IMG/VR virus record: IMGVR_UViG_2874968258_000001
Coordinates: 1-61,666 of that record
Source of the DNA: a virus
Taxonomy: Duplodnaviria; Heunggongvirae; Uroviricota; Caudoviricetes
DNA length: 61,666 nucleotides
Direction: 5' to 3' (one strand)
Shown: in pieces, positions 728 to 61,666 of the stretch
Position numbering within the stretch: the first letter of the stretch is position 1
Layout: the number at the start of each line of letters is the position of its first letter
The notes under the pieces: generated by a model
The model's input: the letters and a program-made list of their open reading frames with translations, nothing else
What the model was told of the DNA's origin: nothing
Database searches by the model: none
Made by a program: the position numbers and the translations under genes

Positions 728-762
728 TCGAACAATGGCGACAACAATTTCCCATTGAAGCG

Positions 763-5865: not shown

Positions 5866-6097
5866 GTTCTTTTTTTGTGGTGAAAGATGAGGCAAAATTA
5901 TCGCGTAACATGCTAACAATGGAGTTTGTTTTGTGATAAAGCCATTTTTAATGACGGTTGCAATATTAACCTCTTGCTGTGCTCAGGCGAAAATACTAAC
6001 AAATGAGGAGATTGTTTCACGATTTATTAGTAACGTTAAAACGGTGATGCTGCCAACTTACTGATTTAGTGTATGATGGTGTTTTTGAGGTGCTCCA

Positions 6098-7198: not shown

Positions 7199-7226
7199 AG
7201 CCGCCAGAAATTGGCGGTTTTTTTAT
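7199..7226 (+). terminator. Rho-independent terminator after the disrupted lipoprotein gene
   Basis: Hairpin CCGCCAGAAATTGGCGG followed by T7. Confidence 0.6.
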
Positions 7227-7238
7227 AGTGGAGACAGT

Positions 7239-10220: not shown

Positions 10221-10225
10221 AAATC

Positions 10226-11741: not shown

Positions 11742-11935
11742 CCAACGCCATTCATGGCCATATCAATGATTTTCTGGTGCGTACCGGGTTGAGAAGCGGT
11801 GTAAGTGAACTGCAGTTGCCATGTTTTACGGCAGTGAGAGCAGAGATAGCGCTGATGTCCGGCAGTGCTTTTGCCGTTACGCACCACCCCGTCAGTAGCT
11901 GAACAGGAGGGACAGCTGATAGAAACAGAAGCCAC
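11660..11935 (-). CDS. insA: IS1 InsA
   Basis: Identical 91-aa InsA translation on minus strand. Confidence 0.95.
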
Positions 11936-12487
11936 TGGAGCACCTCAAAAACACCATCATACACTAAATCAGTAAGTTGGCAGCATCACCGGGGGCGCAG
12001 ACCCTGATTATGTTATCTGGGCGAAAGAAGTTCAGGGTATTAACCGTGCATGGACTTTCAGACACTGGAAAGGCACTGGAACGGTTGGCGTGATGGTGGC
12101 GACAAACGATCCGGAACGCCCGGCCCCGGATGAAAGCGTGATTAACGCAGTCAGGGACCACATCCTTCCTCTGGCACCTGTTGCCGGAAGCGGATTGTAT
12201 GTATTCGGTGCCACAGAAAAAGTCATCCCGATGACGATTGCATTATCGAAAGACACACCGCAGATCAGGACTGCAATAAAAGCAGAGCTGAATGCACTGA
12301 TGTTACGGGATGGTGTGCCAGAGGGGCGTATGTATCTGTCCAGAATCAGTGAGGCCATCAGTTTGTCTGCTGGTGAAGTGGCCCACCGGTTAATCGTCCC
12401 TTCATCGGATATTGACCTGGGGGAGACCGAGCTTCCGGTGCTCGGCGAGATCACCTGGCAGGCTTATGACCCGGCAAGGAGTAAATA

Positions 12488-13078
12488 ATGGATTCGTTAC
12501 AGGATGATTATACAAAGCTGCTGTACGGACTGATGCCGCCGGGGCCTGCATGGTCAGATACCGACGGTGTACTTGACGGTCTGGCACCATCGCTTGTGCG
12601 TGTTCACCAGCGGGCTGATGAACTGGTGATTGAAATCGATCCCGGTCAGTCCACAGAGCTGATTGAACGTTATGAAGAATTGTATGGTTTACCTGATTCC
12701 TGTTCCCCTGTCGGAACCCAGACATTACGCCAGCGTCAGCAACGTCTTGAAGCAAAAGCCAATGTGGCTGGTGGCATAAATGAGCAGTTCTTCCTGGATC
12801 AGCTTGAGGCGCTGGGATATACCGGCGTAACGATCGAACAGTTCCAGCACTTGGATGCAAGCCCCGATCCGGAATGGGGAGATCGCTGGCGTTATTTCTG
12901 GCGTGTGACGTTGCCGATGGATGCCGGTGCTCAGTGGCAGACATGCACGGACGCCTGCAACACACCGATCCGGACGTGGGGGGATACGGTTGCGGAGTGC
13001 GTGATTAATAAATTATGTCCGTCACACACCGTCGTTTTATTTTCCTATCCAGATGAGGATGAAGATGCACAGGATTGA
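12488..13078 (+). CDS. Mu gp48-like tail protein (YmfQ/DUF2313-like)
   Basis: 196-aa ORF between baseplate J and tail fibre. Confidence 0.6.
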   Translation: MDSLQDDYTKLLYGLMPPGPAWSDTDGVLDGLAPSLVRVHQRADELVIEIDPGQSTELIERYEELYGLPDSCSPVGTQTLRQRQQRLEAKANVAGGINEQFFLDQLEALGYTGVTIEQFQHLDASPDPEWGDRWRYFWRVTLPMDAGAQWQTCTDACNTPIRTWGDTVAECVINKLCPSHTVVLFSYPDEDEDAQD

Positions 13079-14105
13079 TACGCTGACTGCGGTAAAAGAT
13101 AAGTTTGGTCCGGGTAAGAACGGATTTACTGACGGAAATCTTCGCACAGGACGTCTTGCTACCTGGCTGAACAGTGCCATGTGGAATGCCATTCAGGAGG
13201 AAATCTGTGGTGTCATTGAGAAGGCCGGGATAGAACTGAATAAAGAAGAACACGACCAGCTATATAAGGCTATATTATTGCTGGTGGGCGGTGCAATTAA
13301 CGAAGAGGCATTGCTGATAAAAAATAACCTTTCGGATGTGGAAGACAGGGATGAGGCTGTTGAAAACCTCGGATTAAAACCCACGGTGGATAAGGCAAAA
13401 AATGCCGTTCAGCGTGATGGCGACACCATGACCGGAGAGCTGAAAATCCGTGGTGTTAATGCGCTGAGGATTTTCAACGAAGCTTTTGGCCTGATTTTTC
13501 GTCGTTCGGAAGAGTGCCTGCACCTTATTCCCACCAGTGAAGGTCAGGGGGAAAATGGCGATATTGGTCCCCTGCGCCCGTTCACCATTAATCTGCGGAC
13601 GGGTGAAATATCCATGTCGCATAAAGTGTCTGTTGGCGGTGGTTCGCAGGTCAATGGTGCGCTGGGTATCGGCGTTCAGAACGCCCTGGGGGGGAATTCA
13701 ATTGTTCTTGGTGATAATGACACCGGATTCAAACAGAATGGTGATGGCCTGCTGGATGTTTATGCCAATAGCGTGCATGTGTTGCGTTTTCAGAGTGGCA
13801 GTATCCAGAGTAATAAAGCTGTAAACGTTACAGGACGGGTAACACCGTCAGACTACGGAAACTTTGATGCCCGTTACCAGCAGCGAAATGGTGGCGTGCA
13901 GGATGTGCGGTATGGTTATGAAATGTATTACACCCCCGGCAGTAACACCGTTTCGTGGACATTTCGCTCACCTTCGGGACACGGGCTGTCAGGGATATCG
14001 ATATCGGATACCGGCCGTAACTCAGCGGATAACGTCAACGGCGTGTATTACCGACCGCTGCAAAAACTGATTAATGGCACCTGGTATAACGTAGCGAGTA
14101 TTTAA
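13065..14105 (+). CDS. Tail fibre protein
   Basis: ~347-aa ORF, Gly/Asn/Ser-rich C-terminal region, followed by a tfa-type gene. Confidence 0.65.
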   Translation: MHRIDTLTAVKDKFGPGKNGFTDGNLRTGRLATWLNSAMWNAIQEEICGVIEKAGIELNKEEHDQLYKAILLLVGGAINEEALLIKNNLSDVEDRDEAVENLGLKPTVDKAKNAVQRDGDTMTGELKIRGVNALRIFNEAFGLIFRRSEECLHLIPTSEGQGENGDIGPLRPFTINLRTGEISMSHKVSVGGGSQVNGALGIGVQNALGGNSIVLGDNDTGFKQNGDGLLDVYANSVHVLRFQSGSIQSNKAVNVTGRVTPSDYGNFDARYQQRNGGVQDVRYGYEMYYTPGSNTVSWTFRSPSGHGLSGISISDTGRNSADNVNGVYYRPLQKLINGTWYNVASI

Positions 14106-14107
14106 CA

Positions 14108-14653
14108 ATGTTGCATTTAAAAAATATTACGGCAGGTAATCCGAAAACCGCGGAATAATATCAGCTGACAAAACAGTATGATGTCACCTGGCTTTTTTCG
14201 GAAGACGGCAAAAACTGGTATGAAGAACAGAAGAACTTTGCCAGTGACACCATAAAAATGGTTTACACCGGAGACGGGCGCGTGGTGTGGGTCGGTAAGG
14301 ATGTGACAGGCATTGAACCCCGTAACGCCAGTGTTATTGAAGTTCCTGATATTACCGCCAACCGCCGCATTACCGCGCCGGGTTACTGGTTTTACCGCAA
14401 TGATGAATTTGTCTTTGACTACAGACTCAAAGCGGAAGATGAGCGTGATGCCCTTCTGGCTCAGGTCAGTGCCCGGACAGGGGAATGGGAAGAAGACCTG
14501 CTGCTGGGGCTAATCAGCGACGAAGACCGGGAAAAACTGAAAGCGTACCGTATTTACGCGAAATCGCTGCAGGCGATGGATTTCAGCACCATCACTGATA
14601 AATCCTCATATAACGCCATTGAATGGTCCGTCTCTCCGGAAGGTTCTTCCTGA
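14108..14653 (+). pseudogene. Tail fibre assembly protein with in-frame ochre stop at codon 17 (14156-14158)
   Basis: ATG 14108 gives MLHLKNITAGNPKTAE-stop-YQLTKQYDVTWLFSEDGKNWYEE...; the frame is continuous with the annotated ORF 14258..14653. Confidence 0.55.
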
Positions 14654-14676
14654 TTTAATTTATCGCGAGAAAAACT

Positions 14677-15945
14677 ATGTCTGTAGTGATATCAGGTGCG
14701 CTGACTGATGGCGCAGGCATCCCCATGTCCGGATGCCAGATTATTCTGAAATCCCGTGTAAACACCTCAGAAGTGGTGATGCGTACCAGGGCTGATGTAG
14801 TGACCGGAAATAACGGTGAATATTCGTTTGAGGCACAGGTCGGAAAATATTGCGTGTATCTGAAACGGGACTGGCGCGACGAGTACTGTGTTGGCGACAT
14901 TGCTGTATACGACGACTCAAAGCCCGGCACGCTGAATGACTTTCTGATTGCTCCTGATGAGGGCGACCTGAAACCGGATGTCGTCAAACGCTTTGAGGAA
15001 ATGGTGGCGCAGGCGCAGCAGAGCGCCGGGGCCGCAGCCGGAAACGCACAGCAGACGGCGCAGGATGTGGCGGCAGCCGCAGGTTATGCCCGCGCAGCAG
15101 AGCAGGCCAAAAATGACATTGATGCTGCGCTGACCGGCACTCTGAAAACGGCTAACCATCTGTCTGAAATCGCAGCAGCAGGCGAAAAGGCACAACAGAA
15201 GTCCCGGGATAATCTGGGGCTGAAAAGTGCGGCCACGATGGAAGCACAGAGCGACATTTACGACCGGACAAAAGGCCGTCTGGCGATACCCGGCGCATTC
15301 GGCTTTGGGTGTGCTTTTCTGCCTGAAGATGTTATCCGTTTTGACACTAAGAGTGATTTCCTGGCCTGGGTAAGGAATGCGCTGCCAGGTGAATATTCCG
15401 TTGCTGGCCCCTACGACATCATCATACCCGACACACGGTTTGAAGGGGTGCTCAGCATCCGGTGGACTGATGCACGCCCTGAGACAACAGAACCGAGGTA
15501 CAGAGCCAAATCCCTTACTTTTTACGGCATTAACGGCCCCATTTATCACACCCGCTACTGCTACTGGCCCATATCCAGACTGACTGGCTGGGTGAAAATA
15601 AATATAACCACAGAAGATATTATTTACAGAATCGTGGCGAGCTCTGTCTGCAACAGATGGGGAGACCCTGACATTGGCGGGCTGATTATTGCTGCGTACC
15701 AGGGAGAAGCTGACGGTGATAAAGTCATCAGACTTGTCAGGGGGCAGTCATACAGAGGCTCACGACTGGGACCGGTGGGGATTTCAGTGCCCAGTACTCC
15801 CACCGGAACGTATATAGCATCCCCACAATTTTTCATTACGGGATGTTCAGAGCATTCATTACCGGGGTCATATAGCGCCCTGTCCGGGGTGCCGGATGCT
15901 CATGTCTCTGGCGCAATGCCCGGGCTTTTTATTCGCACATCGTGA
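14677..15945 (+). CDS. Side tail fibre protein with lambda Stf-like N-terminal domain and a different C-terminal domain
   Basis: N-terminus MSVVISGALTDGAGIPMSGCQIILKSR...[13 protein letters not shown] parallels the stf gene at 54196 ([27 protein letters not shown]...[13 protein letters not shown]). Confidence 0.65.
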   Translation: MSVVISGALTDGAGIPMSGCQIILKSRVNTSEVVMRTRADVVTGNNGEYSFEAQVGKYCVYLKRDWRDEYCVGDIAVYDDSKPGTLNDFLIAPDEGDLKPDVVKRFEEMVAQAQQSAGAAAGNAQQTAQDVAAAAGYARAAEQAKNDIDAALTGTLKTANHLSEIAAAGEKAQQKSRDNLGLKSAATMEAQSDIYDRTKGRLAIPGAFGFGCAFLPEDVIRFDTKSDFLAWVRNALPGEYSVAGPYDIIIPDTRFEGVLSIRWTDARPETTEPRYRAKSLTFYGINGPIYHTRYCYWPISRLTGWVKINITTEDIIYRIVASSVCNRWGDPDIGGLIIAAYQGEADGDKVIRLVRGQSYRGSRLGPVGISVPSTPTGTYIASPQFFITGCSEHSLPGSYSALSGVPDAHVSGAMPGLFIRTS

Positions 15946-15955
15946 GGAATGCACC

Positions 15956-16519
15956 GTGGAAATTAAAAAAATCATTAATCCCCGTTATACCGAAAGTGGC
16001 GCAGTAGACTGTGACGTTTTTTTTGACGACAGGGACCTGGCAGTCCCCTACACAGCCACCGCTGATGATGTCGCACCGACGGGTCAGCAAATCTGGCAGG
16101 AACTGCAAAGTGGCAAATGGGGTGAGATAGCCCCATTCACTGTGACACCAGAAATGCTGGAAGCGGCCAGAGAGGCCAGACGTCAGGAAATTGAAGCATG
16201 GCGCACAGAACAGGAGGCGAAGCCGTTCACGTTTGAATGGAATGGTCGTATCTGGAATGCTGGCCCCGACTCACTGGGCCGCCTGTCCCCGGTAGTCATG
16301 CTGGCAAAATCTGTCACAGCACAAACGCATATGGCGTGGGGTGATGCCGATAATCAGCAGGTGAAACTGTCGATGCCGGAACTGGAAGAACTGGCGGCAG
16401 CAATGGTGCAGGCGCAGGTCGATCGCAACGATGAGATTTATCGCCGTCAGCGTGAAATGAAAGAGGAGCTGAGTGGTCTGGAGGATTTGGGAACAATTAG
16501 AGCGTTTGATGTTACGTAA
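15956..16519 (+). CDS. Putative tail fibre assembly / chaperone protein
   Basis: GTG start with GAGGA 8 nt upstream, immediately after the stf-like stop; family assignment uncertain. Confidence 0.4.
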   Translation: MEIKKIINPRYTESGAVDCDVFFDDRDLAVPYTATADDVAPTGQQIWQELQSGKWGEIAPFTVTPEMLEAAREARRQEIEAWRTEQEAKPFTFEWNGRIWNAGPDSLGRLSPVVMLAKSVTAQTHMAWGDADNQQVKLSMPELEELAAAMVQAQVDRNDEIYRRQREMKEELSGLEDLGTIRAFDVT

Positions 16520-16565
16520 TTGGTAAGCTGCATCGTGTTAAATTGTTACCCTTATTTACAACTAG

Positions 16566-16600
16566 AAAAGCCTCTGACTTCATAATCAGAGGCTTTTTTG
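16566..16600 (+). terminator. Rho-independent terminator
   Basis: AAAAGCCTCTGA...TCAGAGGCTTTTTT hairpin plus T-run. Confidence 0.65.
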
Positions 16601-16727
16601 AAATGCACGTGCATTTTGCGTGTATATTTTTGTCTTTTTCTGGTCCGCTTACTGTCTGGTCAGTGTCCGTAAGTGACTGTTTTTATAGTCTCTGTCCGGT
16701 TGCAGTCCTGTCAAAAGTGGTGGAGCT

Positions 16728-16762
16728 GGCGGGAGTTGAACCCGTGTCCGAATATTTGCAAT
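16728..16762 (-). other. Partial copy of ssrA (tmRNA) 3' end; candidate prophage attachment-site core
   Basis: Minus-strand TTCGGACACGGGTTCAACTCCCGCCAGCTCCACCA matches the E. coli tmRNA 3' terminus as I recall it, with one mismatch; similarity stops upstream, so it is a fragment. Confidence 0.6.
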
Positions 16763-18193: not shown

Positions 18194-19369
18194 TCAAGCC
18201 TGTTTTGTATCATTAGTATTTTTAGCGGTATGTCCGTCATATGCAGCAAGGTAACTGCCATAGTGACGAAATAGCATTTCTGGTCCCTTATGGCCCATCT
18301 GGCCTGCAAGCCAGAACAGGTTCGCACCACGGCTGATATGGCTGGTGGCGAATGTATGCCTGGTCTGATATGGGTTACGGTACCGGATACCTGCTTTACG
18401 TAAGGTTGGTATCCACGCTTTTTTCCTTATCGCATCGGCGCTGGCCCACGGTTTGTTTGTCTTTGGATCTTCAAAGACAGTAGCATCCTTCATGAATGTA
18501 AATGGCTTCTGATTTATCAGCGCCAACATTGCCTCTTCTGTCAGTTCAACTTTACGAGTACCGGCTTTTGTCTTTGTTCCTTTGATAACACCGACAACAC
18601 TTGCGCTCTGGACATGGGCAGTTTTTCCAACAAAGTCGATATCACGCCATCGAAGGGCACATAATTCAGAACTACGCAGGCCTGTATGTATAGCGAACCG
18701 GAACAGATTTTCCCATTGTTTGTTTCCGGCTGCTGCTAGTAATGCATCAACTTCTGCTGGTGATAGCGGATCAACCACGTAGCTGCTTTCTGCTTCTGAC
18801 TTATCACTTTGGTAGCGCGAAGCAGTTACCAACGATACGGGGTTAATTTGAAGTACCCCATCGGTTACGGCTTCATCAAGTGCTGACCGCAGGAAAGATA
18901 ACTGGTTGCGAATTGTTTTTAAGGTCGTTTTCTGGCTTTGAATCCACGCTTTCAGGATTGCTGGTGTTAATTCACTTGCAGGGCAAATGTGGAGTGAGGC
19001 TAACGCACTACGGCATTTTTTATAACCACCAATCGTAGAGGGTGAAAGTTTTCTCGTTTCGCAGATTTCAAGGTATTCGTCCAGGTACATTTTTACCGTT
19101 TTGCCTGCAGCAGCATTACCAAAAATTTTCAAACGAGCAGAACGGGGAAAATATTCCGCATAAATGAATGTTCCCCTTTCGATCTTATTATGAATTTCGC
19201 CGAGTGTGCGCTCGGCGTATTTTATGTTCTTTGGTATTACTTCCAGATTGGAAAGAGGCTCACGACATTTAACTCCTTTGTAGGTGAAAGTTATATTGAT
19301 CGTTTCGCCCTGGCGGTGTTTCCTGATTGTTACGCCGCGCGGTAGTTTGAGCAGTTTTGTCTGGCCCAT
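18194..19369 (-). CDS. int: Phage integrase (tyrosine recombinase)
   Basis: 391-aa ORF with R...HxxR...Y catalytic motifs (LRSSELCALRW, YQTRHTFAT, LFRHYGSY). Confidence 0.9.
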   Translation of the reverse strand: MGQTKLLKLPRGVTIRKHRQGETINITFTYKGVKCREPLSNLEVIPKNIKYAERTLGEIHNKIERGTFIYAEYFPRSARLKIFGNAAAGKTVKMYLDEYLEICETRKLSPSTIGGYKKCRSALASLHICPASELTPAILKAWIQSQKTTLKTIRNQLSFLRSALDEAVTDGVLQINPVSLVTASRYQSDKSEAESSYVVDPLSPAEVDALLAAAGNKQWENLFRFAIHTGLRSSELCALRWRDIDFVGKTAHVQSASVVGVIKGTKTKAGTRKVELTEEAMLALINQKPFTFMKDATVFEDPKTNKPWASADAIRKKAWIPTLRKAGIRYRNPYQTRHTFATSHISRGANLFWLAGQMGHKGPEMLFRHYGSYLAAYDGHTAKNTNDTKQA

Positions 19370-26183: not shown

Positions 26184-26674
26184 TCATGAGTCTTTTGAAT
26201 GAAGTTCAGAAATTCATTGAAGCCCATCCGGGGTGTACTTCCGGAGACATTGCGGATGCTTTTGCAGGTTACTCACGGCAGCGCGTTCTGCAGTCAGCAA
26301 GCAAGTTACGTCAGAGTGGGCGTGTGGCTCACCGTTGTGAAGGAGATACACGCAGACATTTCCCGCGCCTGACTGAGAGAGCGCAGGAACCGGAACCACA
26401 ACCAGTTCGAGAAACCAGACCTGTGCGCAATTTCTATGTCGGCACTAACGATCCACGGGTGATTTTGTGCCTGACCCGCCAGGCTGAAGAACTGGAGTCC
26501 AGGGGCTTATACCGTCGTGCTGCAACCGTGTGGATGGCGGCATTCCGTGAAAGCCACTCCCAGCCAGAACGAAACAATTTTCTGGCGCGTCGTGAGCGGT
26601 GCTTACGGAAAAGCAGCAAGCGCGCTGTATCGGGTGATGAGTGGTATCTGTCAGGGAATTACGTGGGGGCTTAA
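26180..26674 (+). CDS. Putative regulator: winged-helix N-terminus, PerC-like C-terminal motif
   Basis: C-terminal AEELESRGLYRRAATVWMAAF...RRERC resembles the PerC/Pch motif as I recall it. Confidence 0.4.
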   Translation: MIMSLLNEVQKFIEAHPGCTSGDIADAFAGYSRQRVLQSASKLRQSGRVAHRCEGDTRRHFPRLTERAQEPEPQPVRETRPVRNFYVGTNDPRVILCLTRQAEELESRGLYRRAATVWMAAFRESHSQPERNNFLARRERCLRKSSKRAVSGDEWYLSGNYVGA

Positions 26675-27327
26675 TGAGTAATAAATATTGCCAGGAGCTG
26701 GTGGAACTGCGGAACAAACCAGCCCATGAACTGAAGGAAGTGGGCGATCAGTGGCGCACGCCGGACAACATTTTCTGGGGAATTAACACCCTGTTTGGTC
26801 CGTTTGTTCTGGATCTGTTCACTGACGGTGATAACGCCAAATGTGCTGCGTATTACACGGCGGAAGACAACGCGCTGGCGCATGACTGGTCAGAACGCCT
26901 TGCGGAGCTTAAAGGTGCTGCCTTTGGAAATCCCCCATACAGCCGCGCCAGTCAGCATGAGGGGCAATACATCACCGGCATGCGTTACATCATGAAGCAT
27001 GCCAGTGCCATGCGTGATAAGGGCGGGCGCTATGTTTTCCTGATCAAAGCTGCCACCAGCGAAGTGTGGTGGCCGGAAGATGCAGATCATATTGCTTTTA
27101 TTCGCGGGCGTATTGGTTTTGAACTGCCTGCCTGGTTTATCCCGAAGGATGAGAAGCAGGTGCCGACAGGCGCTTTCTTCGCTGGTGCTATTGCTGTTTT
27201 CGACAAGACCTGGAAGGGACCGGCAATCAGCTACATCGGGCGCGATGAACTTGAGGCATGTGGTGAGGCGTTTCTGGCGCAGGTTCGCCTGCAGGCGGAA
27301 AAGCTGGTCAGGGAGATGGCGGCATGA
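26674..27327 (+). CDS. Phage Dam-family DNA N6-adenine methyltransferase
   Basis: NPPY motif (FGNPPYSR); ATG 26674 with G-rich RBS. Confidence 0.75.
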   Translation: MSNKYCQELVELRNKPAHELKEVGDQWRTPDNIFWGINTLFGPFVLDLFTDGDNAKCAAYYTAEDNALAHDWSERLAELKGAAFGNPPYSRASQHEGQYITGMRYIMKHASAMRDKGGRYVFLIKAATSEVWWPEDADHIAFIRGRIGFELPAWFIPKDEKQVPTGAFFAGAIAVFDKTWKGPAISYIGRDELEACGEAFLAQVRLQAEKLVREMAA

Positions 27328-27650
27328 CGACGTTAACTCAATGCCAGCAGCAGGTGCTGGATATGCTGATTTCTTATCAGAAAGAGCGTGGCTTCCCGCC
27401 AACCAATCAGGAGGTGGCAACCATGCTGGGATACCGTTCGGTGAATGCAGCGGTGGAGCATCTTCGCGCACTGGAGAAAAAAGGCGTCATCACGATAAAG
27501 CGTGGTGTGGCCCGGGGGATCACGCTTCATACCGCGGTGAAGGACGACGACAGCGAGGCGGTCGGGATTATCCGCTCACTGCTTGCCGGTGAGGAAAACG
27601 CAAGGCTGCGTGCAACTCACTGGTTACATGAGAGAGGCCTGAAAGTATGA
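27324..27650 (+). CDS. LexA N-terminal DNA-binding domain protein lacking the S24 peptidase domain
   Basis: Residues 1-70 align by eye with the LexA DNA-binding domain (QQQVLD...GFPPT..E.A..LGYRS.NAA.EHL.AL..KGVI...G..RGI.L); only ~38 aa follow. Confidence 0.6.
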   Translation: MTTLTQCQQQVLDMLISYQKERGFPPTNQEVATMLGYRSVNAAVEHLRALEKKGVITIKRGVARGITLHTAVKDDDSEAVGIIRSLLAGEENARLRATHWLHERGLKV

Positions 27651-31437: not shown

Positions 31438-31911
31438 ACCTGTAAACTTGGTGCAGTACAGTAAACACGCTGGTGGTCGTGAATACTGACTTTTTATCTT
31501 GCTGGCTTTTTAGACAAGAGTTATTGGTATGTCATGTTAACCAGAAGGGAAAAAGACATGCTAAAACAGCAAGATATGACAGAAACCGCCGCCGCAGTCC
31601 TTCATTTCTTACCTGCTGACAAGTGGGTAACGCCACGCATGATGACGAGAACTACCGGAGTAAGTGAAGCCCGGTGCCAGTTAATACTGACTCAGTTAGT
31701 TCTGGCGGGTCTGGCGAAGGATAGCGGCGGGTACGGGAATAAATTCAGACGCTGCCAGTAATGGCGGTTTCCTGCTGTGAAAATGGGCGGCTGGTGGGTG
31801 TTGGTAGCACCTGCCAGCCATTCGCTCATGCTTACTGGTCACAAGCGAACCACGGCCCACTGCTTTAGCGCAAAAGCAGAGTGAGCCTACCAGAGTTACG
31901 CTTACTGATCC

Positions 31912-32964
31912 ATGAAAAATACTGTAAAAATAAACAGTGTTGATTTAATCAACGCTGATTGCCTGCATTTTATTCAGTCCCTGCCTGATGATTCCATTGA
32001 CCTGATTGTTACCGATCCGCCGTACTTCAAGGTGAAACCCAACGGCTGGGACAATCAGTGGAAAGGGGACGAAGATTACCTTAAGTGGCTGGACCACTGT
32101 CTGGCCCAGTTCTGGCGGGTGTTAAAACCTGCCGGAAGCCTTTACCTGTTCTGTGGGCATCGCTTGGCATCTGATATTGAGATCATGATGCGTGAACGTT
32201 TCAACGTGCTTAACCATATCATCTGGGCGAAGCCGTCCGGACGTTGGAATGGGTGTAATAAAGAAAGTCTGCGCGCATATTTTCCTGCCACAGAGCGCGT
32301 TCTGTTTGCTGAACATTACCAGGGTCCATATCGCGGCAAAAGTGACGGCTATGCGGCAAAAGAAAGGGAACTCAAACAGCACATAATGGCACCGCTGATA
32401 TCGTATTTCAGGGATGCTCGTGCCGAACTGGGTATAACGGCAAAACAAATTGCCGAAGCCACAGGTAAGAAAAATATGGTTTCCCACTGGTTTGGTGCCA
32501 GTCAGTGGCAGTTGCCGAATGAGGCTGACTATCGGAAGTTACAGGCACTGTTTTCCCGTATAGCGGCAGAGAAGTTTCAGGAACAACAACTGGAACAACC
32601 ACACCACCAGCTGGTGGCATCTTATGATTCACTGAATCGCAAATATTCTGAATTGCTGGATGAGTTTAAATCTCTCCGGCGCTATTTCTCCGTATCAGTC
32701 TCCGTGCCTTATACCGATGTCTGGATGCATAAACCCGTTCAGTTCTACCCGGGTAAACATCCGTGTGAGAAACCTGCGGATATGCTCCGGCAAATAATCA
32801 ATGCCAGTAGTCGACCTGGTGATCTGGTTGCTGATTTTTTTATGGGATCCGGTTCCACAATAAAAGCAGCAATGGCGCTGGGGCGTCGGGCCTTAGGTGT
32901 TGAGCTTGAGTCAGAGCGGTTTAACCAGACAGTGAAAGAGATAAACGAGCTGGTGGGGAAATAA
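31912..32964 (+). CDS. Orphan DNA methyltransferase (N6-adenine/N4-cytosine type, DPPY motif first, SAM motif last)
   Basis: IVTDPPYF near N-terminus and FFMGSGST near C-terminus. Confidence 0.75.
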   Translation: MKNTVKINSVDLINADCLHFIQSLPDDSIDLIVTDPPYFKVKPNGWDNQWKGDEDYLKWLDHCLAQFWRVLKPAGSLYLFCGHRLASDIEIMMRERFNVLNHIIWAKPSGRWNGCNKESLRAYFPATERVLFAEHYQGPYRGKSDGYAAKERELKQHIMAPLISYFRDARAELGITAKQIAEATGKKNMVSHWFGASQWQLPNEADYRKLQALFSRIAAEKFQEQQLEQPHHQLVASYDSLNRKYSELLDEFKSLRRYFSVSVSVPYTDVWMHKPVQFYPGKHPCEKPADMLRQIINASSRPGDLVADFFMGSGSTIKAAMALGRRALGVELESERFNQTVKEINELVGK

Positions 32965-54131: not shown

Positions 54132-54195
54132 TTAGCCAGGTAACACAGTGTTATGACAGCCCGCCGGTTCAGGCGGGCTTTTTTGTGGGGTGAAT

Positions 54196-57156
54196 ATGGC
54201 AGTAAAGATTTCAGGTGTACTGAAAGACGGCACAGGAAAACCGGTACAGAACTGCACAATCCAGCTGAAAGCAAAACGTAACAGCACCACGGTGGTGGTG
54301 AACACGGTGGCCTCAGAAAATCCGGATGAAGCCGGGCGTTACAGCATGGACGTTGAGTACGGTCAGTACAGCGTTATTCTGTTGGTGGAAGGATTCCCGC
54401 CGTCACATGCCGGGACCATCACCGTGTATGAAGATTCCCGACCCGGTACGCTGAATGATTTTCTCGGTGCCATGACGGAGGATGATGCCCGTCCGGAGGC
54501 TCTGCGCCGTTTTGAACTGATGGTGGAAGAGGTGACGCGTAACGCGTCCGCGGTGGCACAGAACACGGCAGCCGCGAAGAAGTCAGCCAGTGATGCCGGC
54601 ACATCTGCCCGTGAGGCGGCAACCCATGCGACTGATGCTGCAGGCTCAGCGCGTGCAGCCAGCACGTCAGCCGGACAGGCCGCGACTTCGGCTCAGGAGG
54701 CGTCTTCCAGCGCAGGAACGGCATCAACAAAGGCCACTGAAGCATCAAAAAGTGCTGCCGCTGCAGAGTCCTCAAAAAGCGCGGCGGCCACCAGTGCCGG
54801 TGCGGCGAAAACGTCAGAAACGAATGCTGCAGCGTCACAAAAATCAGCAGCCACTTCTGCATCCACTGCGACGACGAAAGCGTCAGAAGCCGCCACTTCA
54901 GCCAGAGATGCGGCGGCCTCCAAAGAGGCGGCAAAATCATCAGAAACGAACGCCTCCACAAGCGCCAGCAGTGCAGCCTCCTCGGCAACGGCGGCAGGAA
55001 ATTCCGTGAAGGCGGCAAAAACGTCCGAGACGAATGCCAGGTCTTCTGAAACGGCAGCGGAACAGAGCGCCTCAGCTGCGGCAGACTCTGAGACAGCAGC
55101 TGCATCATCGGCCCGTGAGGCGTCCATTAAGGCAGAGGAGGCAGCAGTCAGTGCCACCGCCGCCGGAAAATCGGCAGAAAGCGCCGCATCATCCGCTTCA
55201 ACAGCCACAACGAAGGCTGGCGAAGCCACTGAACAGGCCAGCGCAGCAGCGAGGTCTGCTTCCGCAGCGAAGACATCCGAAACGAACGCGAAAGCGTCGG
55301 AAACCAGCGCAGAATCCTCAAAAACGGCTGCCGCATCGTCCGCCAGTTCGGCGGCGTCATCGGCATCATCTGCGTCTGCTTCAAAAGATGAGGCGACCAG
55401 ACAGGCGTCAGCAGCGAGGGGCAGCGCCACGACGGCATCCACGAAGGCGACAGAGGCTGCTGGCAGTGCGGCAGCGGCAGCACAGAGCAAAAGTACGGCG
55501 GAATCCGCGGCAACGCGCGCCGAGACAGCAGCAAAACGGGCAGAGGATATTGCATCCGCCGTGGCGCTTGAGGATGCGAGCACGACGAAAAAGGGGATAG
55601 TACAGCTCAGCAGTGCGACCAACAGCACTTCCGAGTCACAGGCGGCAACGCCAAAAGCCGTTAAGGCCGCGTATGACCTGGCTAACGGGAAATACACCGC
55701 ACAGGATGCAACGACAGCACAGAAAGGGATAGTTCAGCTCAGCAGTGCGACTAACAGCACTTCCGAGTCACAGGCGGCAACGCCAAAAGCCGTTAAGGCC
55801 GCGTATGACCTGGCTAACGGGAAATACACCGCACAGGACGCTACGACAGCACAAAAAGGAATTGTCCAGCTCAGTAGTGCAACCAACAGCACATCTGAAA
55901 CGCTTGCTGCGACACCGAAAGCAGTGAAAGCAGCTAATGACAATGCGAATGGTCGGGTACCTTCTGCCCGTAAGGTGAATGGTAAGGCGCTTTCAGCGGA
56001 TATAACACTGACGCCGAAAGATATTGGTACGCTTAACTCAACAACAATGTCATTCAGCGGTGGTGCTGGTTGGTTCAAATTAGCAACGGTAACCATGCCA
56101 CAGGCGAGTTCTGTTGTTTCAATTACGTTGATTGGTGGCGCTGGATTTAACGTGGGGTCACCTCAACAGGCAGGTATATCTGAACTTGTTTTACGTGCAG
56201 GTAATGGTAATCCGAAGGGGATTACTGGTGCTTTATGGCAGCGCACATCGACAGGGTTTACAAATTTTGCCTGGGTCAATACATCTGGTGATACTTACGA
56301 TATTTACGTTGCAATCGGAAATTATGCGACTGGTGTAAATATTCAATGGGATTATACCAGTAATGCCAGCGTGACGATTCATACGTCACCAGCATATTCT
56401 GCTAATAAGCCGGAAGGGTTAACGGACGGTACAGTTTATTCACTCTATACGCCATCAGAGCAGTTTTATCCGCCTGGCGCACCAATCCCGTGGCCATCAG
56501 ATACCGTTCCGTCTGGCTATGCCCTGATGCAGGGGCAGACTTTTGACAAATCTGCATACCCGAAACTTGCAGCCGCTTATCCGTCAGGCGTGATCCCTGA
56601 TATGCGTGGCTGGACGATTAAGGGCAAACCTGCCAGTGGTCGGGCCGTATTGTCTCAGGAACAGGACGGCATTAAATCGCATACCCACAGCGCCAGCGCA
56701 TCCAGTACGGATTTGGGGACGAAAACCACATCGTCGTTTGATTACGGCACTAAATCCACGAATAACACTGGTGCGCATACCCATAGTTTAAGTGGCAGCA
56801 CGAATGCAGCTGGTAATCACAGCCATAGAGATGGCCGTCGATTTAACCCCAGTGTTTTTAAAGATACTTATCAATATGGTTATACAAGCTCAGGTCAAAA
56901 TACCTGGGGTGTACAAGGCTCAGTAGGTATGTCTACGGGGTGGTTAGCGAATACCAGTACAGATGGTAATCATAGCCATTCACTGTCCGGCACAGCAGCA
57001 TCTGCAGGTGCACACGCGCATACTGTCGGTATTGGTGCTCATACGCACTCCGTTGCGATTGGTTCACATGGACACACCATCACCGTTAACGCTGCTGGTA
57101 ACGCGGAAAACACCGTCAAAAACATCGCATTTAACTATATTGTGAGGCTTGCATAA
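54196..57156 (+). CDS. stf: Side tail fibre protein Stf
   Basis: [26 protein letters not shown]... and C-terminus ...[22 protein letters not shown] parallel lambda Stf; long Ala/Ser-rich region. Confidence 0.85.
55583..55955 (+). repeat. In-frame tandem repeat, ~2.9 copies of a 126-bp unit, inside stf
   Basis: Units begin near 55583, 55711, 55837; each encodes ~42 aa ([43 protein letters not shown]). Confidence 0.75.
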
Positions 57157-57740
57157 TGGCATTCAGAATGAGTGAACAAGCACGGACCATAAAAATTTAT
57201 AATCTGCTGGCCGGAACTAATGAATTTATTGGTGAAGGTGACGCATATATTCCGCCTCATACAGGTCTGCCAGCAAACAGTACCGATATTGCACCACCAG
57301 ATATTCCGGCAGGCTTCGTGGCTGTTTTCAACAGTGATGAGGCATCGTGGCATCTCGTTGAAGACCATCGGGGTAAAACGGTTTATGACGTGGCTTCCGG
57401 CGACGCGTTATTTATTTCTGAACTCGGTCCGTTACCGGAAAATGTTACCTGGTTGTCGCCGGGAGGGGAATATCAGAAGTGGAGCGGCACAGCCTGGGTG
57501 AAGGATACGGAAGCAGAAAAACTGTTCCGGATCCGGGAGGCAGAAGAAACAAAAAACAGCCTGATGCAGGTAGCCAGTGAGCATATTGCGCCACTTCAGG
57601 ATGCTGTAGATCTGGAAATCGCAACGGAGGAAGAAACCTCATTGCTGGAAGCCTGGAAAAAGTATCGGGTGTTGCTGAACCGTGTTGATACATCAACTGC
57701 ACCGGATATTGAGTGGCCAGAAGAACCAGACACCGTGTAA
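57156..57740 (+). CDS. tfa: Tail fibre assembly protein Tfa
   Basis: [54 protein letters not shown]... parallels lambda Tfa. Confidence 0.85.
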
Positions 57741-57809
57741 GCAAAAAAGAAAAACCGCAGACACGACGTATGCATGACGTGCTGCGGTTTATGCTTATCA
57801 CTTAAAGAC

Positions 57810-58628
<819 letters not shown>

Positions 58629-58989
58629 TCATTGCAAGGGCTCACAACCAGTAGTGTTGAGAAAACCATCGGAGAAATGAGGCTAAGCCTTTGAATTTAC
58701 ATAGTACAAAAAAGATACTTTTCCTCATAATGTGAGCTAATTTTATGTTTCGTTTGATGATTGGACCGGTCTCGAAAACCGTAGACACATAGTATGCGTT
58801 AATTTATGAACAAACTACTTATCTGCTGTTTTTCTGTCATTAGTCGTATATAGAATGATTCTCTATGCCTAACAAAGCATCACCAGTGCTAGATTACGTT
58901 GTAGTCACTGTTTAAATATCCAGATAAAACATTTCCTTCTGGGTTGAATGAGTGATAAAGTTTCACCCATTAGACCCCTTGGAGGAATT

Positions 58990-60423
58990 ATGTCTGAATT
59001 TGAAGTGTTGGCACAGCATCTGCTGAAGGAAGCCGAGGCGGAAGAAAAGCTGCGACAGGAAAATGATAAAAAGCTTATCGAGAAAGTGCTGGAAATCTAT
59101 GATCAGAAGTATGTGGCTGAATTACTGAGAAAAGTCGGAAAAAATGAGTGGAGCCGTGAAACCATTAACCGCTGGATTAATGGCAAGTGTTTACCAAAAT
59201 CGTTGACTTCAGTAGAAGAGTCTCTTCTGCGTAAGATGCTACCAGAACCACCTGCAAACCATCCGGAATATGCTTTCCGCTTCATTGACTTATTTGCTGG
59301 AATTGGAGGGATACGGAAAGGTTTTGAGGCCATTGGAGGCCAGTGTGTTTTTACCAGTGAATGGAATAAAGATGCTGTGCGTACATACAAGGCCAACTGG
59401 TTTAACGATGAACAGGTGCATAAATTCAATCTCGATATTCGGGAAGTCACGCTGAGTGATAAAACCGATGTATTGGAAACGGATGCTTATGCATATATTG
59501 ATGAGCATGTGCCGGATCATGATGTGCTTCTTGCGGGGTTCCCGTGCCAGCCATTTAGCCTTGCTGGTGTTAGTAAGAAAAACTCACTTGGTCGTGCGCA
59601 TGGTTTTGAATGTGAAGCACAAGGAACACTTTTTTTTGACGTGGCACGTATTATACGAGCAAAAAAACCGGCAATTTTTGTGCTGGAAAATGTCAAAAAT
59701 CTGAAGAGCCATGATAAGGGTAAAACTTTCAAAGTCATTATGGAGACCCTTGACGAGCTGGGCTACGAAGTTGCCGATGCTGCAGAAATGGGAAAAAACG
59801 ATCCAAAGATTATCGATGGGAAGCATTTTTTGCCTCAGCATCGTGAACGTATTGTTCTGGTCGGATTTAGACGAGATCTGAATATTCACAAGGGGTTTAC
59901 CTTGCGTGATATCAGTCGTTTTTATCCGGAACACCGCCCATCATTTGGTGAATTGCTGGAGCCTGTAGTCGACAGTAAATATATACTTACGCCAAAACTA
60001 TGGGAGTACCTTTATAACTACGCCAAAAAGCATGCAGCCAAGGGGAATGGTTTTGGCTTTGGGTTGGTCAATCCTGAGAATAAGGAAAGCATTGCACGCA
60101 CACTTTCTGCCAGATATCACAAAGACGGATCAGAAATTCTTATTGATCGTGGTTGGGATATGGCAACGGGAGAGGCTGACTTTATGAATGAGAGTAATCA
60201 GGCTCGTCGACCACGCAGGCTGACTCCCCGAGAGTGCGCACGCCTTATGGGATTTGAAAAACCTGGAGGGAAACCATTCCGTATTCCGGTTTCAGATACT
60301 CAGTCATATCGGCAGTTCGGTAACTCAGTTGTGGTGCCAGTATTTGAAGCTGTTGCCAGACTTCTGGAACCCTATATCCTCAAAGCTGTTTCTGCTGATG
60401 CTGGTAAGACTGGGCAGCCTTGA
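58990..60423 (+). CDS. ecoRIIM: DNA cytosine-5 methyltransferase, M.EcoRII/Dcm-like
   Basis: FAGIGG, PCQPFS, ENV, QFGNSV motifs; 477 aa from ATG 58990 with GGAGG RBS. Confidence 0.85.
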
Positions 60424-60429
60424 GAACAT

Positions 60430-60452
60430 CTCCCGGCCTTTTAAGCCGGGAG
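60430..60452. terminator. Bidirectional hairpin between convergent M and R genes
   Basis: CTCCCGGC-CTTTTAA-GCCGGGAG. Confidence 0.5.
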
Positions 60453-60457
60453 TCAGC

Positions 60458-61666
60458 CTATGATAGTTCAGCGTAAAGCTCTATCAGCTCAGTAATGAAT
60501 GCTCCGAGCGTTATTAATTCTTCTCTAACTGCTTCTGGGTATTTTTTATGTAAAGTTGATGGTACAACGAGTCTGACACCCGCATCTTTCATTTCTCGGT
60601 ATTGTGCTGAAGAAACACCTTCTTGCAGTGTAAATAAATGTACCTGATGGATTTTATCTGCTTCATTCAGTATCTGACGCCAGCGATCTTTGCAGGTGGT
60701 CTTTACTGCCAGCATACGTAAGTTTTCTACAGGAAATTCAACGTTATGATATGCCTCTGCTGAAGGAAACAGGAAATCTGGTTTTTTATTACCTTCAGTA
60801 ACTGCCTGAGTGGAGAAATGCCGTAGTCCGTGCTCGATAAAAAGCTTCTCTAGGTGAAGTTCAAGTGATTTGCCTGCCCTTGATTTACGTCGATTACTGA
60901 CAGAGTTGGCTAATGCAATAAACTCATCTACAGAATCGAATCCTTTCTTAATAATATCAAGAACATGTAATTCCTCGACGAGTAGAAAAATATCATACTC
61001 GACACGCCGACGGTCAATCAGTTGCTCATCTGGATCCTTGGAGTTTTTAGCATAATGGCCAGCAGCATATTGAATAATTTCGTTTCCAGAAGGAAAACGC
61101 TTCTTCCAGTCTTCAGGAATAACATATTTATGATTTACTGGAGTTTGCTGAAGAGACAATCCGCCCAAAATTTGTCCGGCAGGGCCGGAAATTAGGGTTC
61201 CAGGTATGATTTCGCCAATAGCAGACTCGATGATATCCTCTTCATCGGGATTGACGCAGACCCATATATCTACCTCGGAACAGTCAGTGTTCTGTTCGTT
61301 TAACCTGAAAGCAAGAATTGTGAGGGCTCCTGTATTTTCAGGGTTCTGTAATGGACTTCCTCTCCCCCAGCGCGTAATTCTTTTTTCGTTTCGGGTCTTA
61401 CCAAAATAACGGTTGTTGTAATAAATTGCGCGTGCTTGGGTATCAGGGCAATCATGGGATGATACATGCGCAGTAAGGAAGACTGAAGGGTTCAGTTCGC
61501 GAGTATGATTGATAGATGGAAAAAGCTTTTCAACGATATTTGAGGGGATATAAAGTCCGACCTGATGGCCACCTGTTGCGCCTGTGTCGTTTGCAGAAAG
61601 GCGTTTGATGTAGATAAAGTAATTCCCGCTTGCGATATCAAGCAGCCAGTTATGAAAAACCGACAT
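60458..61666 (-). CDS. ecoRIIR: EcoRII-type restriction endonuclease
   Basis: 402-aa ORF starting at the last base of the window; N-terminus MSVFHNWLLDIASGNYFIYIKRLSANDTGATGGHQVGLYIP matches EcoRII as recalled; convergent with the Dcm-like gene. Confidence 0.75.
   Translation of the reverse strand: MSVFHNWLLDIASGNYFIYIKRLSANDTGATGGHQVGLYIPSNIVEKLFPSINHTRELNPSVFLTAHVSSHDCPDTQARAIYYNNRYFGKTRNEKRITRWGRGSPLQNPENTGALTILAFRLNEQNTDCSEVDIWVCVNPDEEDIIESAIGEIIPGTLISGPAGQILGGLSLQQTPVNHKYVIPEDWKKRFPSGNEIIQYAAGHYAKNSKDPDEQLIDRRRVEYDIFLLVEELHVLDIIKKGFDSVDEFIALANSVSNRRKSRAGKSLELHLEKLFIEHGLRHFSTQAVTEGNKKPDFLFPSAEAYHNVEFPVENLRMLAVKTTCKDRWRQILNEADKIHQVHLFTLQEGVSSAQYREMKDAGVRLVVPSTLHKKYPEAVREELITLGAFITELIELYAELS

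What the first reader, a model, noticed from the sequence alone, without database searches (positions are those of the whole stretch)
58990..61666. EcoRII-type restriction-modification pair at the tail-distal end of the prophage
A Dcm-like C5 methyltransferase and a convergent endonuclease whose N-terminus matches EcoRII as I recall it, separated by a bidirectional hairpin. This is a known system type, but it sits right after stf-tfa, the usual accessory position of lambdoid prophages. No second att core is visible in the window, so I cannot tell whether it is inside the prophage.
Basis: partly seen in the sequence, partly recalled or inferred. Interest (0 to 1): 0.45.

Follow-up and report, generated by a model that had tools for sequence, protein, structure and literature searches.

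The report
Prophage-borne EcoRII-type restriction-modification pair
This is an intact, ordinary EcoRII-family restriction-modification gene pair carried as cargo next to the attachment site of a lambda-like prophage, beside a second known anti-phage nuclease, so it is a routine defence islet and not a new system.

Summary
Window 58990-60423 (+) encodes a 477-aa C5 cytosine methyltransferase, 91% identical to plasmid M.EcoRII. Window 60458-61666 (-) encodes a full-length, unframeshifted 402-aa endonuclease, 87% identical to R.EcoRII. All 21 catalytic and DNA-contact residues checked are conserved. The genes converge on a conserved 8-bp hairpin.

The open question, inside or outside the prophage, is answered: inside. 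In two E. coli genomes with a 100% identical cassette, R lies 234 bp from the 3' end of ssrA (tmRNA). Compared with an empty glaH-ssrA site, the whole 46.6-kb stretch from R to the integrase end is one insertion bounded by ssrA-derived direct repeats. The integrase-side copy of that core is in the window at 16718-16744. The other copy lies about 235 bp beyond the window end.

The same cassette sits in a circular 43.7-kb phage genome and in 33 IMG/VR viral contigs.

The gene between tfa and M (57810-58583) is CMoRE/PD-T4-3, a characterised type IV nuclease against hydroxymethylcytosine phages. The region is therefore a two-system defence cassette.

About 99% of E. coli genomes carry a dcm-family methylase gene, which should blunt both the defence and the addiction effects of this pair. 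This is a known kind of system and interest is low.

The parts
58990..60423 (+). C5 cytosine methyltransferase of the M.EcoRII/Dcm family, 477 aa. It has an N-terminal DNA_meth_N (repressor-type) domain followed by the catalytic domain.
   Evidence: Pfam DNA_methylase and DNA_meth_N. NCBIfam PRK10458 scores 927 bits against a cutoff of 710. It is 91% identical to plasmid M.EcoRII. Motifs [22 protein letters not shown] and GNSV are all present, and only 6 substitutions fall between motifs VIII and IX.
60458..61666 (-). Type IIE restriction endonuclease of the EcoRII family, 402 aa. It has an N-terminal effector domain and a C-terminal catalytic domain. The ATG is the last codon of the window.
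   Evidence: Pfam EcoRII-N and EcoRII-C. PDB 1NA6 matches at E=1.3e-242 over the full length. It is 87% identical to plasmid R.EcoRII. Conserved residues: E271/D299/K324/E337, N260/K328/D329/R330, N28/H36/Q37/Y85/R94/E96/R98, and six phosphate contacts (residue roles from PMC2770665).
60430..60452 (.). Hairpin in the 34-bp M-R intergenic spacer: CTCCCGGC, a 7-nt loop, then GCCGGGAG.
   Evidence: Read from the sequence and folded. The stem is identical in the plasmid EcoRII operon although the flanks diverge. It has no T-run and was not called as a terminator.
58908..58989 (+). Upstream region of M that is shared with the plasmid EcoRII operon. It probably holds the promoter and operator for autoregulation by M.
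   Evidence: Homology to the plasmid EcoRII locus begins at window-equivalent position 58908. The aligned upstream blocks are conserved. The function is inferred from published M.EcoRII autoregulation (PMC12707154).
57810..58583 (-). CMoRE / PD-T4-3: a GIY-YIG type IV nuclease that depends on DNA modification and targets 5hmC/5ghmC DNA. It is the first gene of the cassette.
   Evidence: PADLOC PD-T4-3 at 7.6e-140 over the full length. PDB 9U75 at E=5e-171, with 7 differences in 257 aa. The Y17/Y19/Y31 'GIYxY-YIG' motif is present in the translation (motif from PMC12923530).
57752..57790 (.). Left edge of the cassette. It is a 13-bp-stem hairpin, followed on the - strand by a T-run, which makes it a likely terminator of CMoRE.
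   Evidence: The homology break falls at 57752 in L003, L004, L005 and L006. Alignment A2 shows the hairpin.
58763..58784 (+). Relic of a tRNA-Ser anticodon arm at the junction between the CMoRE module and the R-M module.
   Evidence: Homology to CMoRE-only loci ends at 58784. In O157 Sakai the same position continues as the 3' part of a tRNA-Ser gene.
16718..16744 (.). Integrase-side copy of the att core, equal to the last 27 nt of ssrA (TGGTGGAGCTGGCGGGAGTTGAACCCG). It marks the far boundary of the lambdoid prophage that carries the R-M pair.
   Evidence: blastn and alignment against the ssrA junction of strain SA186. Identity between the window and SA186 begins exactly at this core.
18194..19369 (-). 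Site-specific (tyrosine) integrase of the lambdoid prophage.
   Evidence: ORF list. The matching gene is annotated as a site-specific integrase in SA186 and AR_0081.
54190..57740 (+). Side tail fibre (stf) and tail fibre assembly (tfa) genes immediately upstream of the cassette.
   Evidence: Pfam phage_tail_N, Phage_fiber_2, Collar and Caudo_TAP.

Best explanation
This is a functional EcoRII-family type IIE restriction-modification system, with specificity almost certainly CCWGG. It is carried as non-essential cargo (a 'moron') on the arm of a lambdoid prophage's attachment site that lies opposite the integrase.

How the prophage sits in the chromosome. The phage integrates into the 3' end of ssrA (tmRNA). 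After integration the order is ssrA, 234 bp, R, M, CMoRE, tfa, stf, the rest of the phage, int, then the displaced ssrA core.

How the enzymes work (inferred from the conserved residues and the published behaviour of EcoRII). M methylates the inner cytosine of CCWGG. It probably represses its own promoter through its N-terminal domain. R is autoinhibited by its N-terminal effector domain and cuts unmethylated CCWGG only when a second site is bound.

The neighbouring system. The adjacent CMoRE/PD-T4-3 nuclease attacks 5hmC/5ghmC DNA of T-even phages, which a cytosine-dependent R-M cannot cut. The cassette therefore gives the lysogen two complementary layers of defence against superinfection.

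What is shown and what is inferred. Shown here: gene integrity, family membership by sequence, position inside the att-bounded insertion, and carriage by several different phage backbones. Inferred: enzymatic activity, CCWGG specificity, regulation, and the benefit to the lysogen.
For: Family and integrity. These show full-length proteins, 87% and 91% identity to the EcoRII pair, conservation of all 21 assigned R residues, and presence of all methyltransferase motifs.

Inside the prophage:
- SA186 and AR_0081 carry a 100% identical cassette, with R 234 bp from ssrA.
- Strain 2014C-3338 has an empty glaH-ssrA site.
- The 46.6-kb insertion is bounded by 186-188-bp direct repeats made of the last 35 nt of ssrA plus about 151 nt downstream.
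- The integrase-side core is in the window at 16718-16744.

Carried by phages:
- A circular 43.7-kb record holding a full temperate-phage gene set has the cassette between the tail-fibre genes and dinI-int.
- In 33 IMG/VR viral contigs with R at 99% identity or more, M is adjacent in 33 of 33 and CMoRE in 30 of 33.
- The spacer plus ssrA core follows R in all 22 contigs that extend that far.
- Only 11 share the window's tfa, so several different backbones carry the cassette.

Foreign origin: the cassette is 42.8% GC against 51.6% for the prophage.

Neighbour: CMoRE identity and its published mechanism (PMC12923530).

Regulation and type IIE behaviour: PMC12707154 and PMC2770665.
Against: No activity was measured here.

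A dcm-family methylase gene (same CCWGG specificity) is present in 5366 of 5426 complete E. coli genomes. SA186, which carries the cassette, has both genes. Phages grown on typical E. coli therefore arrive at least partly pre-methylated, and the defence benefit within the species may be small.

The window's own right-hand junction was not seen, because the window stops at R's ATG. No complete genome in the collection reproduces the window's tandem-prophage junction. ssrA adjacency in this particular genome is therefore inferred from 129 other genomes.

No close relative occurs in isolated, sequenced phages, so packaging of the cassette into virions is not directly documented.
Confidence: 0.85

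Rival explanations
1. The R-M pair is an independent chromosomal islet. It merely sits between the prophage end and ssrA and is not part of the phage.
For: The cassette is AT-rich compared with the phage. It has the same sharp edges in unrelated backgrounds. In the CT01 phage it is flanked on both sides by decayed att-like copies, as expected if it once was a separate att-bounded element. Integrases are more often found next to the tRNA or tmRNA gene, whereas here int is at the far end (my own knowledge).
Against: Against the empty site, the only duplicated att sequences lie outside R on one side and outside int on the other. No ssrA core lies between tfa (ends 57740) and the cassette (starts 57752) in the window or in SA186. 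A circular phage genome carries the cassette between the tail genes and int. Prophage predictions in IMG/VR include it. The layout with int at the far end follows directly from the orientation of the ssrA fragment in the circular form.
Confidence: 0.08
2. The pair is intact but works mainly as a selfish addiction module, or is effectively neutral, and gives no real anti-phage defence. Host Dcm already methylates CCWGG.
For: A dcm-family gene is present in about 99% of complete E. coli genomes and co-resides with the cassette in SA186. Published work shows that Dcm attenuates host killing after loss of EcoRII (PMC3874152). The phage-type allele is nearly clonal, at 99% identity or more in 263 records. 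That pattern fits recent hitch-hiking as well as it fits selection.
Against: R is full length in every one of the 33 IMG/VR copies and is found as an exact protein on at least 1000 contigs. This argues against neutral decay. It is physically coupled to a proven defence gene, CMoRE, in a classic prophage defence position. Dcm protection of fast-replicating phage DNA is reported to be only partial (my own knowledge; Hattman 1973).
Confidence: 0.25
3. The system has drifted to a specificity other than CCWGG, for example CCNGG or another related site.
For: There are 51 substitutions in R and 45 in M compared with the plasmid enzymes. Relatives such as Ecl18kI and PspGI share the fold but differ in how they read the central base (PMC2577355 abstract).
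Against: All base-contacting residues of both R domains are identical, including those that read the central T:A pair in the effector domain (N28, Q37, Y85, R98). The target-recognition region of M has only 6 substitutions.
Confidence: 0.04

Closest known systems
EcoRII restriction-modification system of enterobacterial resistance plasmids (R.EcoRII, PDB 1NA6/3HQF/3HQG; M.EcoRII)
   Same: The gene order is the same: convergent M and R with a conserved intergenic hairpin. The protein lengths match (477 aa; 402 or 404 aa) and so do the domain architectures. R is 87% and M is 91% identical. All catalytic and DNA-contact residues are identical. The 82 bp upstream of M are also shared.
   Different: It forms a separate allele lineage. 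The gene is about 80% identical at the DNA level to the plasmid type, and in the methylase-gene search nothing falls between 90% and 99% identity. It is carried on the chromosome in prophages next to an ssrA att site, not on conjugative plasmids. It is linked to CMoRE.
Dcm, the orphan chromosomal CCWGG methyltransferase of E. coli (with Vsr)
   Same: It belongs to the same methyltransferase subfamily (NCBIfam PRK10458). The PDB 3ME5 methyltransferase aligns over residues 42-482 of the 491-aa ORF. The predicted target site is the same.
   Different: Dcm has no partner endonuclease and is paired with vsr. The window's M is only about 69% identical to dcm at the DNA level, is paired with R, and has no vsr next to it.
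Burkholderia phage KL3 module: EcoRII-C endonuclease, Vsr and Dcm-type methylase (PMC3091744)
   Same: It is a temperate-phage-borne restriction-modification module of the CCWGG type. It is the only relative found in an isolated phage of known host.
   Different: KL3's endonuclease matches only residues 169-395 of the query, at 39% identity. Its module includes vsr, and its three genes are co-directional in a P2-like phage. The window's enzyme is the full two-domain type IIE form.
CMoRE / PD-T4-3 single-gene defence system (PDB 9U75, 9U7U; PMC12923530)
   Same: The neighbouring gene at 57810-58583 is a member of this system, about 97% identical to the O157:H7 protein whose structure was solved.
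   Different: It is not part of the R-M mechanism. It occurs without the R-M pair in most carriers: 807 genomes have CMoRE, but only 243 have the CMoRE-M junction.
Prophage 'moron' or accessory loci downstream of tail-fibre genes next to attP (the lambda b-region position)
   Same: The position is the same: after stf-tfa, adjacent to att, with lower GC content and its own terminators.
   Different: None of substance. This is a typical example.

Membership tests
EcoRII family of type IIE restriction endonucleases | Two-domain architecture: an N-terminal effector (B3-like) domain plus a C-terminal catalytic domain | tested here: met
   Pfam EcoRII-N covers residues 16-163 (3.9e-61) and EcoRII-C covers 227-391 (2.4e-71). 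The protein aligns to 1NA6 over residues 1-401.
EcoRII family of type IIE restriction endonucleases | Catalytic residues Glu271, Asp299, Lys324 and Glu337 (404-aa numbering) | tested here: met
   All four are identical. The residue list comes from PMC2770665.
EcoRII family of type IIE restriction endonucleases | CC:GG readout by Lys328-Asp329-Arg330 and Asn260, and effector-domain readout by Asn28, His36, Gln37, Tyr85, Arg94, Glu96 and Arg98 | tested here: met
   All are identical, as are the six phosphate-contact residues.
EcoRII family of type IIE restriction endonucleases | Cleavage of unmethylated CCWGG that requires a second (effector) site | not testable with these tools
   This needs enzyme assays on one-site and two-site substrates.
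M.EcoRII/Dcm subfamily of C5 cytosine methyltransferases | Conserved C5-methyltransferase motifs, including the catalytic PCQ cysteine | tested here: met
   [22 protein letters not shown] and GNSV sit at the same positions as in plasmid M.EcoRII. Pfam DNA_methylase scores 4.7e-78.
M.EcoRII/Dcm subfamily of C5 cytosine methyltransferases | N-terminal extension (DNA_meth_N) used for autoregulation, and a subfamily-level HMM score above the curated cutoff | tested here: met
   PF18284 covers residues 42-98 of the 491-aa ORF, which is 28-84 of the 477-aa protein (7.1e-27). NF007772 scores 927 bits against a cutoff of 710. Repressor function itself was not tested.
M.EcoRII/Dcm subfamily of C5 cytosine methyltransferases | Methylation of the inner cytosine of CCWGG | not testable with these tools
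   This needs methylome data from a dcm-deleted lysogen.
Prophage cargo (inside the att-bounded element) | The genes lie between the two att copies created by integration, judged against an empty site | tested here: met
   This is met for SA186 and AR_0081, which have a 100% identical cassette, against the empty site in strain 2014C-3338. For the window itself only the integrase-side core (16718-16744) is visible. The R-side copy lies beyond the window end, so for this genome the result is inferred.
Prophage cargo (inside the att-bounded element) | Presence in the excised or circular phage genome | tested here: inconclusive
   A circular 43.7-kb record with a full phage gene set carries the cassette. 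However, it is a different phage, and the record is labelled a plasmid. No isolated phage genome holds a close relative.
CMoRE / PD-T4-3 (neighbouring gene) | GIYxY-YIG nuclease domain plus the C-terminal modification-sensing domain, matched over the full length | tested here: met
   The PADLOC model matches positions 1-255 of 256. PDB 9U75 aligns over residues 1-257. Y17, Y19 and Y31 are present (PMC12923530).

The most novel reading that the evidence does not exclude
The cassette may be a modular defence unit that is mobilised in cis and moves between unrelated temperate phages by integrase-mediated exchange at tRNA- or tmRNA-type att cores.

Three observations point that way. Its right edge coincides exactly with the end of the 27-nt ssrA core in the other phage or prophage backgrounds examined. 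The junction between the CMoRE and R-M modules carries a relic of a tRNA-Ser anticodon arm. In the CT01 phage the whole cassette is bracketed by two decayed att-like copies.

If this is right, tandem prophage arrays at ssrA, such as the one in this window, would be the places where phages swap defence cargo.
Probability: 0.3. Interest if true: 0.5.

Novelty: new member of a known kind. Interest (0 to 1): 0.2.

Why it matters
It matters little as a discovery. It is a textbook restriction-modification family in a textbook prophage accessory slot, and standard tools detect it. PADLOC's REase_II and MTase_II models score about 1e-230, and RefSeq already names both genes.

It has three modest uses.
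1. It documents a distinct, nearly clonal, phage-borne EcoRII lineage. The methylase allele occurs at 99% identity or more in 263 records of complete E. coli assemblies.
2. It is a natural pairing of a cytosine-dependent R-M with a nuclease specific for hydroxymethylcytosine. That is a clean case of complementary defences travelling together.
3. It poses a tidy question: what does a CCWGG restriction system gain in a species where almost every strain, and therefore most incoming DNA, already carries Dcm methylation?

Tried and rejected
- Close DNA relatives in isolated phage genomes: none found. At the protein level there were only Burkholderia phage KL3 (39% identity, C-terminal domain) and two metagenomic fragments.
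- tRNA or tmRNA genes in the window: none. The R-side att therefore cannot be seen in the window.
- Rfam scan of 57700-61666 at a permissive threshold: nothing.
- Promoter and terminator scans of the region: no more hits than in shuffled sequence, and the M-R hairpin was not called as a terminator.
- A complete E. coli genome with the window's exact tandem-prophage junction: none. I could not read the window's own right flank.
- A recurring 17-nt junction motif (CACGTCGTATGCAAGAA) in the window: one hit with 3 mismatches at the cassette's left edge, and 20 of 100 shuffles do as well. I do not rest anything on the motif itself, only on the homology break-points.
- The window's left-hand myovirus as a cassette-free twin of the CT01 phage: rejected, because the tail modules are only 63-76% identical.
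- NCBIfam has no model for R or for CMoRE.
- Structure prediction and the large protein-database searches were not used. Solved structures at 87% and 97% identity make them unnecessary.
Full report
**1. What is there**

The last 2.7 kb of the window hold two convergent genes.

The first, 58990-60423 on the + strand, encodes a 477-aa C5 cytosine methyltransferase (M). A longer ORF starts at 58948. However, a GGAGG ribosome-binding site precedes the ATG at 58990, and RefSeq and canonical M.EcoRII both start there. Pfam finds the catalytic DNA_methylase domain and the N-terminal DNA_meth_N domain. NCBIfam's Dcm-type subfamily model scores 927 bits against a cutoff of 710.

The second, 60458-61666 on the - strand, encodes a 402-aa protein (R) with the EcoRII-N and EcoRII-C domains. 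It aligns without gaps to the solved EcoRII structure 1NA6 over residues 1-401, E=1.3e-242.

The 34-bp spacer holds an 8-bp GC-rich hairpin, 60430-60437 paired with 60445-60452. Its stem is identical in the plasmid EcoRII operon although the flanking bases differ. It has no T-run, and the terminator scan did not pick it up.

The window stops exactly on R's ATG. In full genomes an in-frame ATG lies 6 nt further upstream, matching the 404-aa canonical form (MFMSVF in the plasmid enzyme, MYMSVF here). Several IMG/VR viral contigs end at the same base. This suggests the window boundary comes from a gene-based prophage call.

**2. How close it is to EcoRII**

I compared both proteins with an EcoRII pair from a resistance plasmid (L007). 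R is 350/401 identical (87%) and M is 432/474 identical (91%).

Using the residue roles given in the EcoRII-DNA co-crystal paper (PMC2770665), the following are all identical in the window's enzyme:
- the four catalytic residues E271, D299, K324 and E337;
- the CC:GG-reading residues N260, K328, D329 and R330;
- the seven base-contacting residues of the effector domain;
- six phosphate contacts.

M keeps every C5-methyltransferase motif at the same position. It has only six substitutions between motifs VIII and IX, where the target-recognition region lies.

CCWGG specificity and type IIE behaviour (autoinhibition relieved by a second site) are therefore the expected properties. They are inferred, not measured.

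**3. Inside or outside the prophage**

The 3-kb region is 100% identical in at least 12 complete E. coli chromosomes. In two of them, SA186 and AR_0081, R's start lies 234 bp from the 3' end of ssrA, the tmRNA gene. The same lambdoid prophage then extends about 45 kb to an integrase and two small genes next to glaH.

Strain 2014C-3338 has the empty site, with glaH and ssrA 682 bp apart. Aligning the empty site to both SA186 junctions shows that 186-188 bp are duplicated at the two ends of a 46.6-kb insertion. The duplicated stretch is the last 35 nt of ssrA plus about 151 nt downstream. R, M and the neighbouring gene lie inside that insertion. No additional ssrA core separates them from tfa.

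The integrase-side copy of the core, TGGTGGAGCTGGCGGGAGTTGAACCCG, is in the window at 16718-16744. It lies just beyond the integrase (18194-19369) and a 272-aa ORF.

To the left of that core the window does not continue into glaH. It continues into the tail end of a second prophage, a myovirus type (sheath, tape measure, baseplate, tail fibre). The window therefore shows a tandem array at ssrA. No complete genome in the collection reproduces this exact junction. For the window's own genome, ssrA adjacency is thus inferred from the 129 genomes in which R and ssrA are contiguous.

**4. The cassette travels with different phages**

The segment from 57752 to the end of the ssrA core (window-equivalent 61928) is 98-99% identical, with identical edges, in three other settings:
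- a circular 43.7-kb record from strain CT01, which has a complete temperate myovirus-type gene set;
- a prophage ending in pinE in strain SH21PTE31;
- a chromosomal fragment deposited as a plasmid.

In the CT01 circle it lies between the tail-fibre genes and dinI-int, the position next to attP.

In IMG/VR, 33 viral contigs carry R at 99% identity or more:
- M is adjacent in all 33.
- The neighbouring gene is adjacent in 30.
- The spacer plus core follows R in all 22 contigs that extend that far.
- The ssrA body follows in 8.
- Only 11 share the window's tfa.

The cassette is 42.8% GC, against 51.6% for the prophage.

**5.

Window 57810-58583 on the - strand encodes a 257-aa GIY-YIG protein. 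It matches PADLOC's PD-T4-3 model end to end, 7.6e-140. It is about 97% identical to the solved O157:H7 protein 9U75.

This system was recently characterised and renamed CMoRE. It is a type IV restriction endonuclease that degrades DNA modified with 5hmC or 5ghmC and protects against T-even phages. It binds 5mC DNA and unmodified DNA much more weakly (PMC12923530; native-host data).

The tail-distal region is thus a two-system defence cassette. The EcoRII-type pair acts on ordinary cytosine DNA. CMoRE acts on the hypermodified DNA that escapes such enzymes.

The two modules are separable. CMoRE occurs in 807 complete genomes, but the CMoRE-M junction occurs in only 243. In O157 Sakai, CMoRE is followed by the 3' part of a tRNA-Ser gene and no R-M.

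**6. Likely mode of action and its limits**

Published work indicates that M.EcoRII represses its own promoter through the fused N-terminal domain once its sites are methylated (PMC12707154). The 82 bp upstream of M are shared with the plasmid operon, so the same control is plausible here.

A real caveat concerns the host. A dcm-family gene is present in 5366 of 5426 complete E. coli genomes, at about 69% DNA identity to this M. SA186 has both genes. Dcm is reported to attenuate EcoRII's post-segregational killing (PMC3874152). It also pre-methylates DNA coming from other E. coli. In keeping with this, CCWGG is not avoided in the prophage: 98 sites observed against 86.5 expected.

The system is intact and widespread. 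The exact proteins are each found on at least 1000 contigs. Even so, its benefit may be confined to DNA from Dcm-negative or under-methylated sources.

**7. Comparison with what is known, and novelty**

This is an EcoRII-family system by every sequence criterion that I could test. It forms a discrete, nearly clonal allele lineage. The methylase allele is at 99% identity or more in 263 records, and the plasmid type sits at 80-90% with nothing between 90% and 99%.

Isolated phage genomes hold no close relative. The nearest published phage example is the EcoRII-C/Vsr/Dcm module of Burkholderia phage KL3.

I rate it a new member of a known kind and of low interest.

The one mildly novel thread is structural. 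The cassette's right edge falls exactly at the end of an att core. A tRNA-Ser relic lies at the internal module junction (58763-58784). Two decayed att-like copies bracket the cassette in the CT01 phage. Together these suggest that cargo is swapped between phages by recombination at att sites in tandem arrays. A 17-nt motif that I thought recurred at the junctions is not statistically convincing in the window, so this remains a hypothesis.

Noticed in passing
window 57810-58583 (- strand): The gene between tfa and M is CMoRE/PD-T4-3, a characterised GIY-YIG type IV nuclease against 5hmC/5ghmC phage DNA. It is about 97% identical to PDB 9U75. It travels with the R-M pair in 30 of 33 IMG/VR copies, but it also occurs alone in many genomes.
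   Followed up: yes
window 1-16717 and 16718-16744: The window holds two prophages in tandem. The left one is the tail end of a myovirus-type prophage (sheath, tape measure, baseplate, tail fibre). It abuts the ssrA-derived att core that bounds the lambdoid prophage. Its own att arm (16520-16717) carries only a terminator-like hairpin (about 16567-16600) and no cargo genes. No complete E. coli genome in the collection has this junction.
   Followed up: partly
window 58763-58784; L005 7003-7085: A 19-22-nt relic of a tRNA-Ser anticodon arm sits exactly where homology to CMoRE-only loci ends. In O157 Sakai the same position continues as the 3' part of a tRNA-Ser gene. This suggests the CMoRE module once lay next to a tRNA-Ser-type att site before the R-M module was joined to it.
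   Followed up: partly
L003 27957-28053 and 32107-32216 (CT01 circular phage): In this 43.7-kb circular phage record the whole cassette is bracketed by two decayed copies of the ssrA-downstream sequence plus core. The core is too degenerate to rebuild ssrA, so this phage probably integrates elsewhere and the att-like copies are relics that came with the cassette.
   Followed up: partly
window 61664-61666 and beyond: The window ends exactly on R's ATG, as do several IMG/VR contigs. An in-frame ATG 6 nt upstream (MYMSVF...) would give the 404-aa canonical length. R's ribosome-binding site and promoter, and a terminator hairpin downstream of ssrA, lie in the 234 bp outside the window.
   Followed up: yes
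L020 3720-5464; L014 4316-5400: Some IMG/VR copies of the cassette are decayed on the CMoRE side. In L020 a deletion fuses a truncated CMoRE with a truncated stf. In L014 CMoRE is missing altogether. M and R remain intact in both.
   Followed up: partly
window about 26670-27330 and about 31910-32960 (mapped from the SA186 annotation): The same prophage appears to encode two further DNA methyltransferases: a phage N6-adenine methyltransferase in the early region and a 'DNA-methyltransferase' next to the lysis genes. This comes from the SA186 annotation and the window-to-SA186 mapping. I did not check it in the window itself.
   Followed up: no
window 54600-55700 (inside stf): The side tail fibre has a long Ala/Ser/Thr-rich low-complexity stretch, followed by three near-identical Phage_fiber_2 repeats. 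The region throws up many long spurious ORFs on other frames and on the opposite strand.
   Followed up: no
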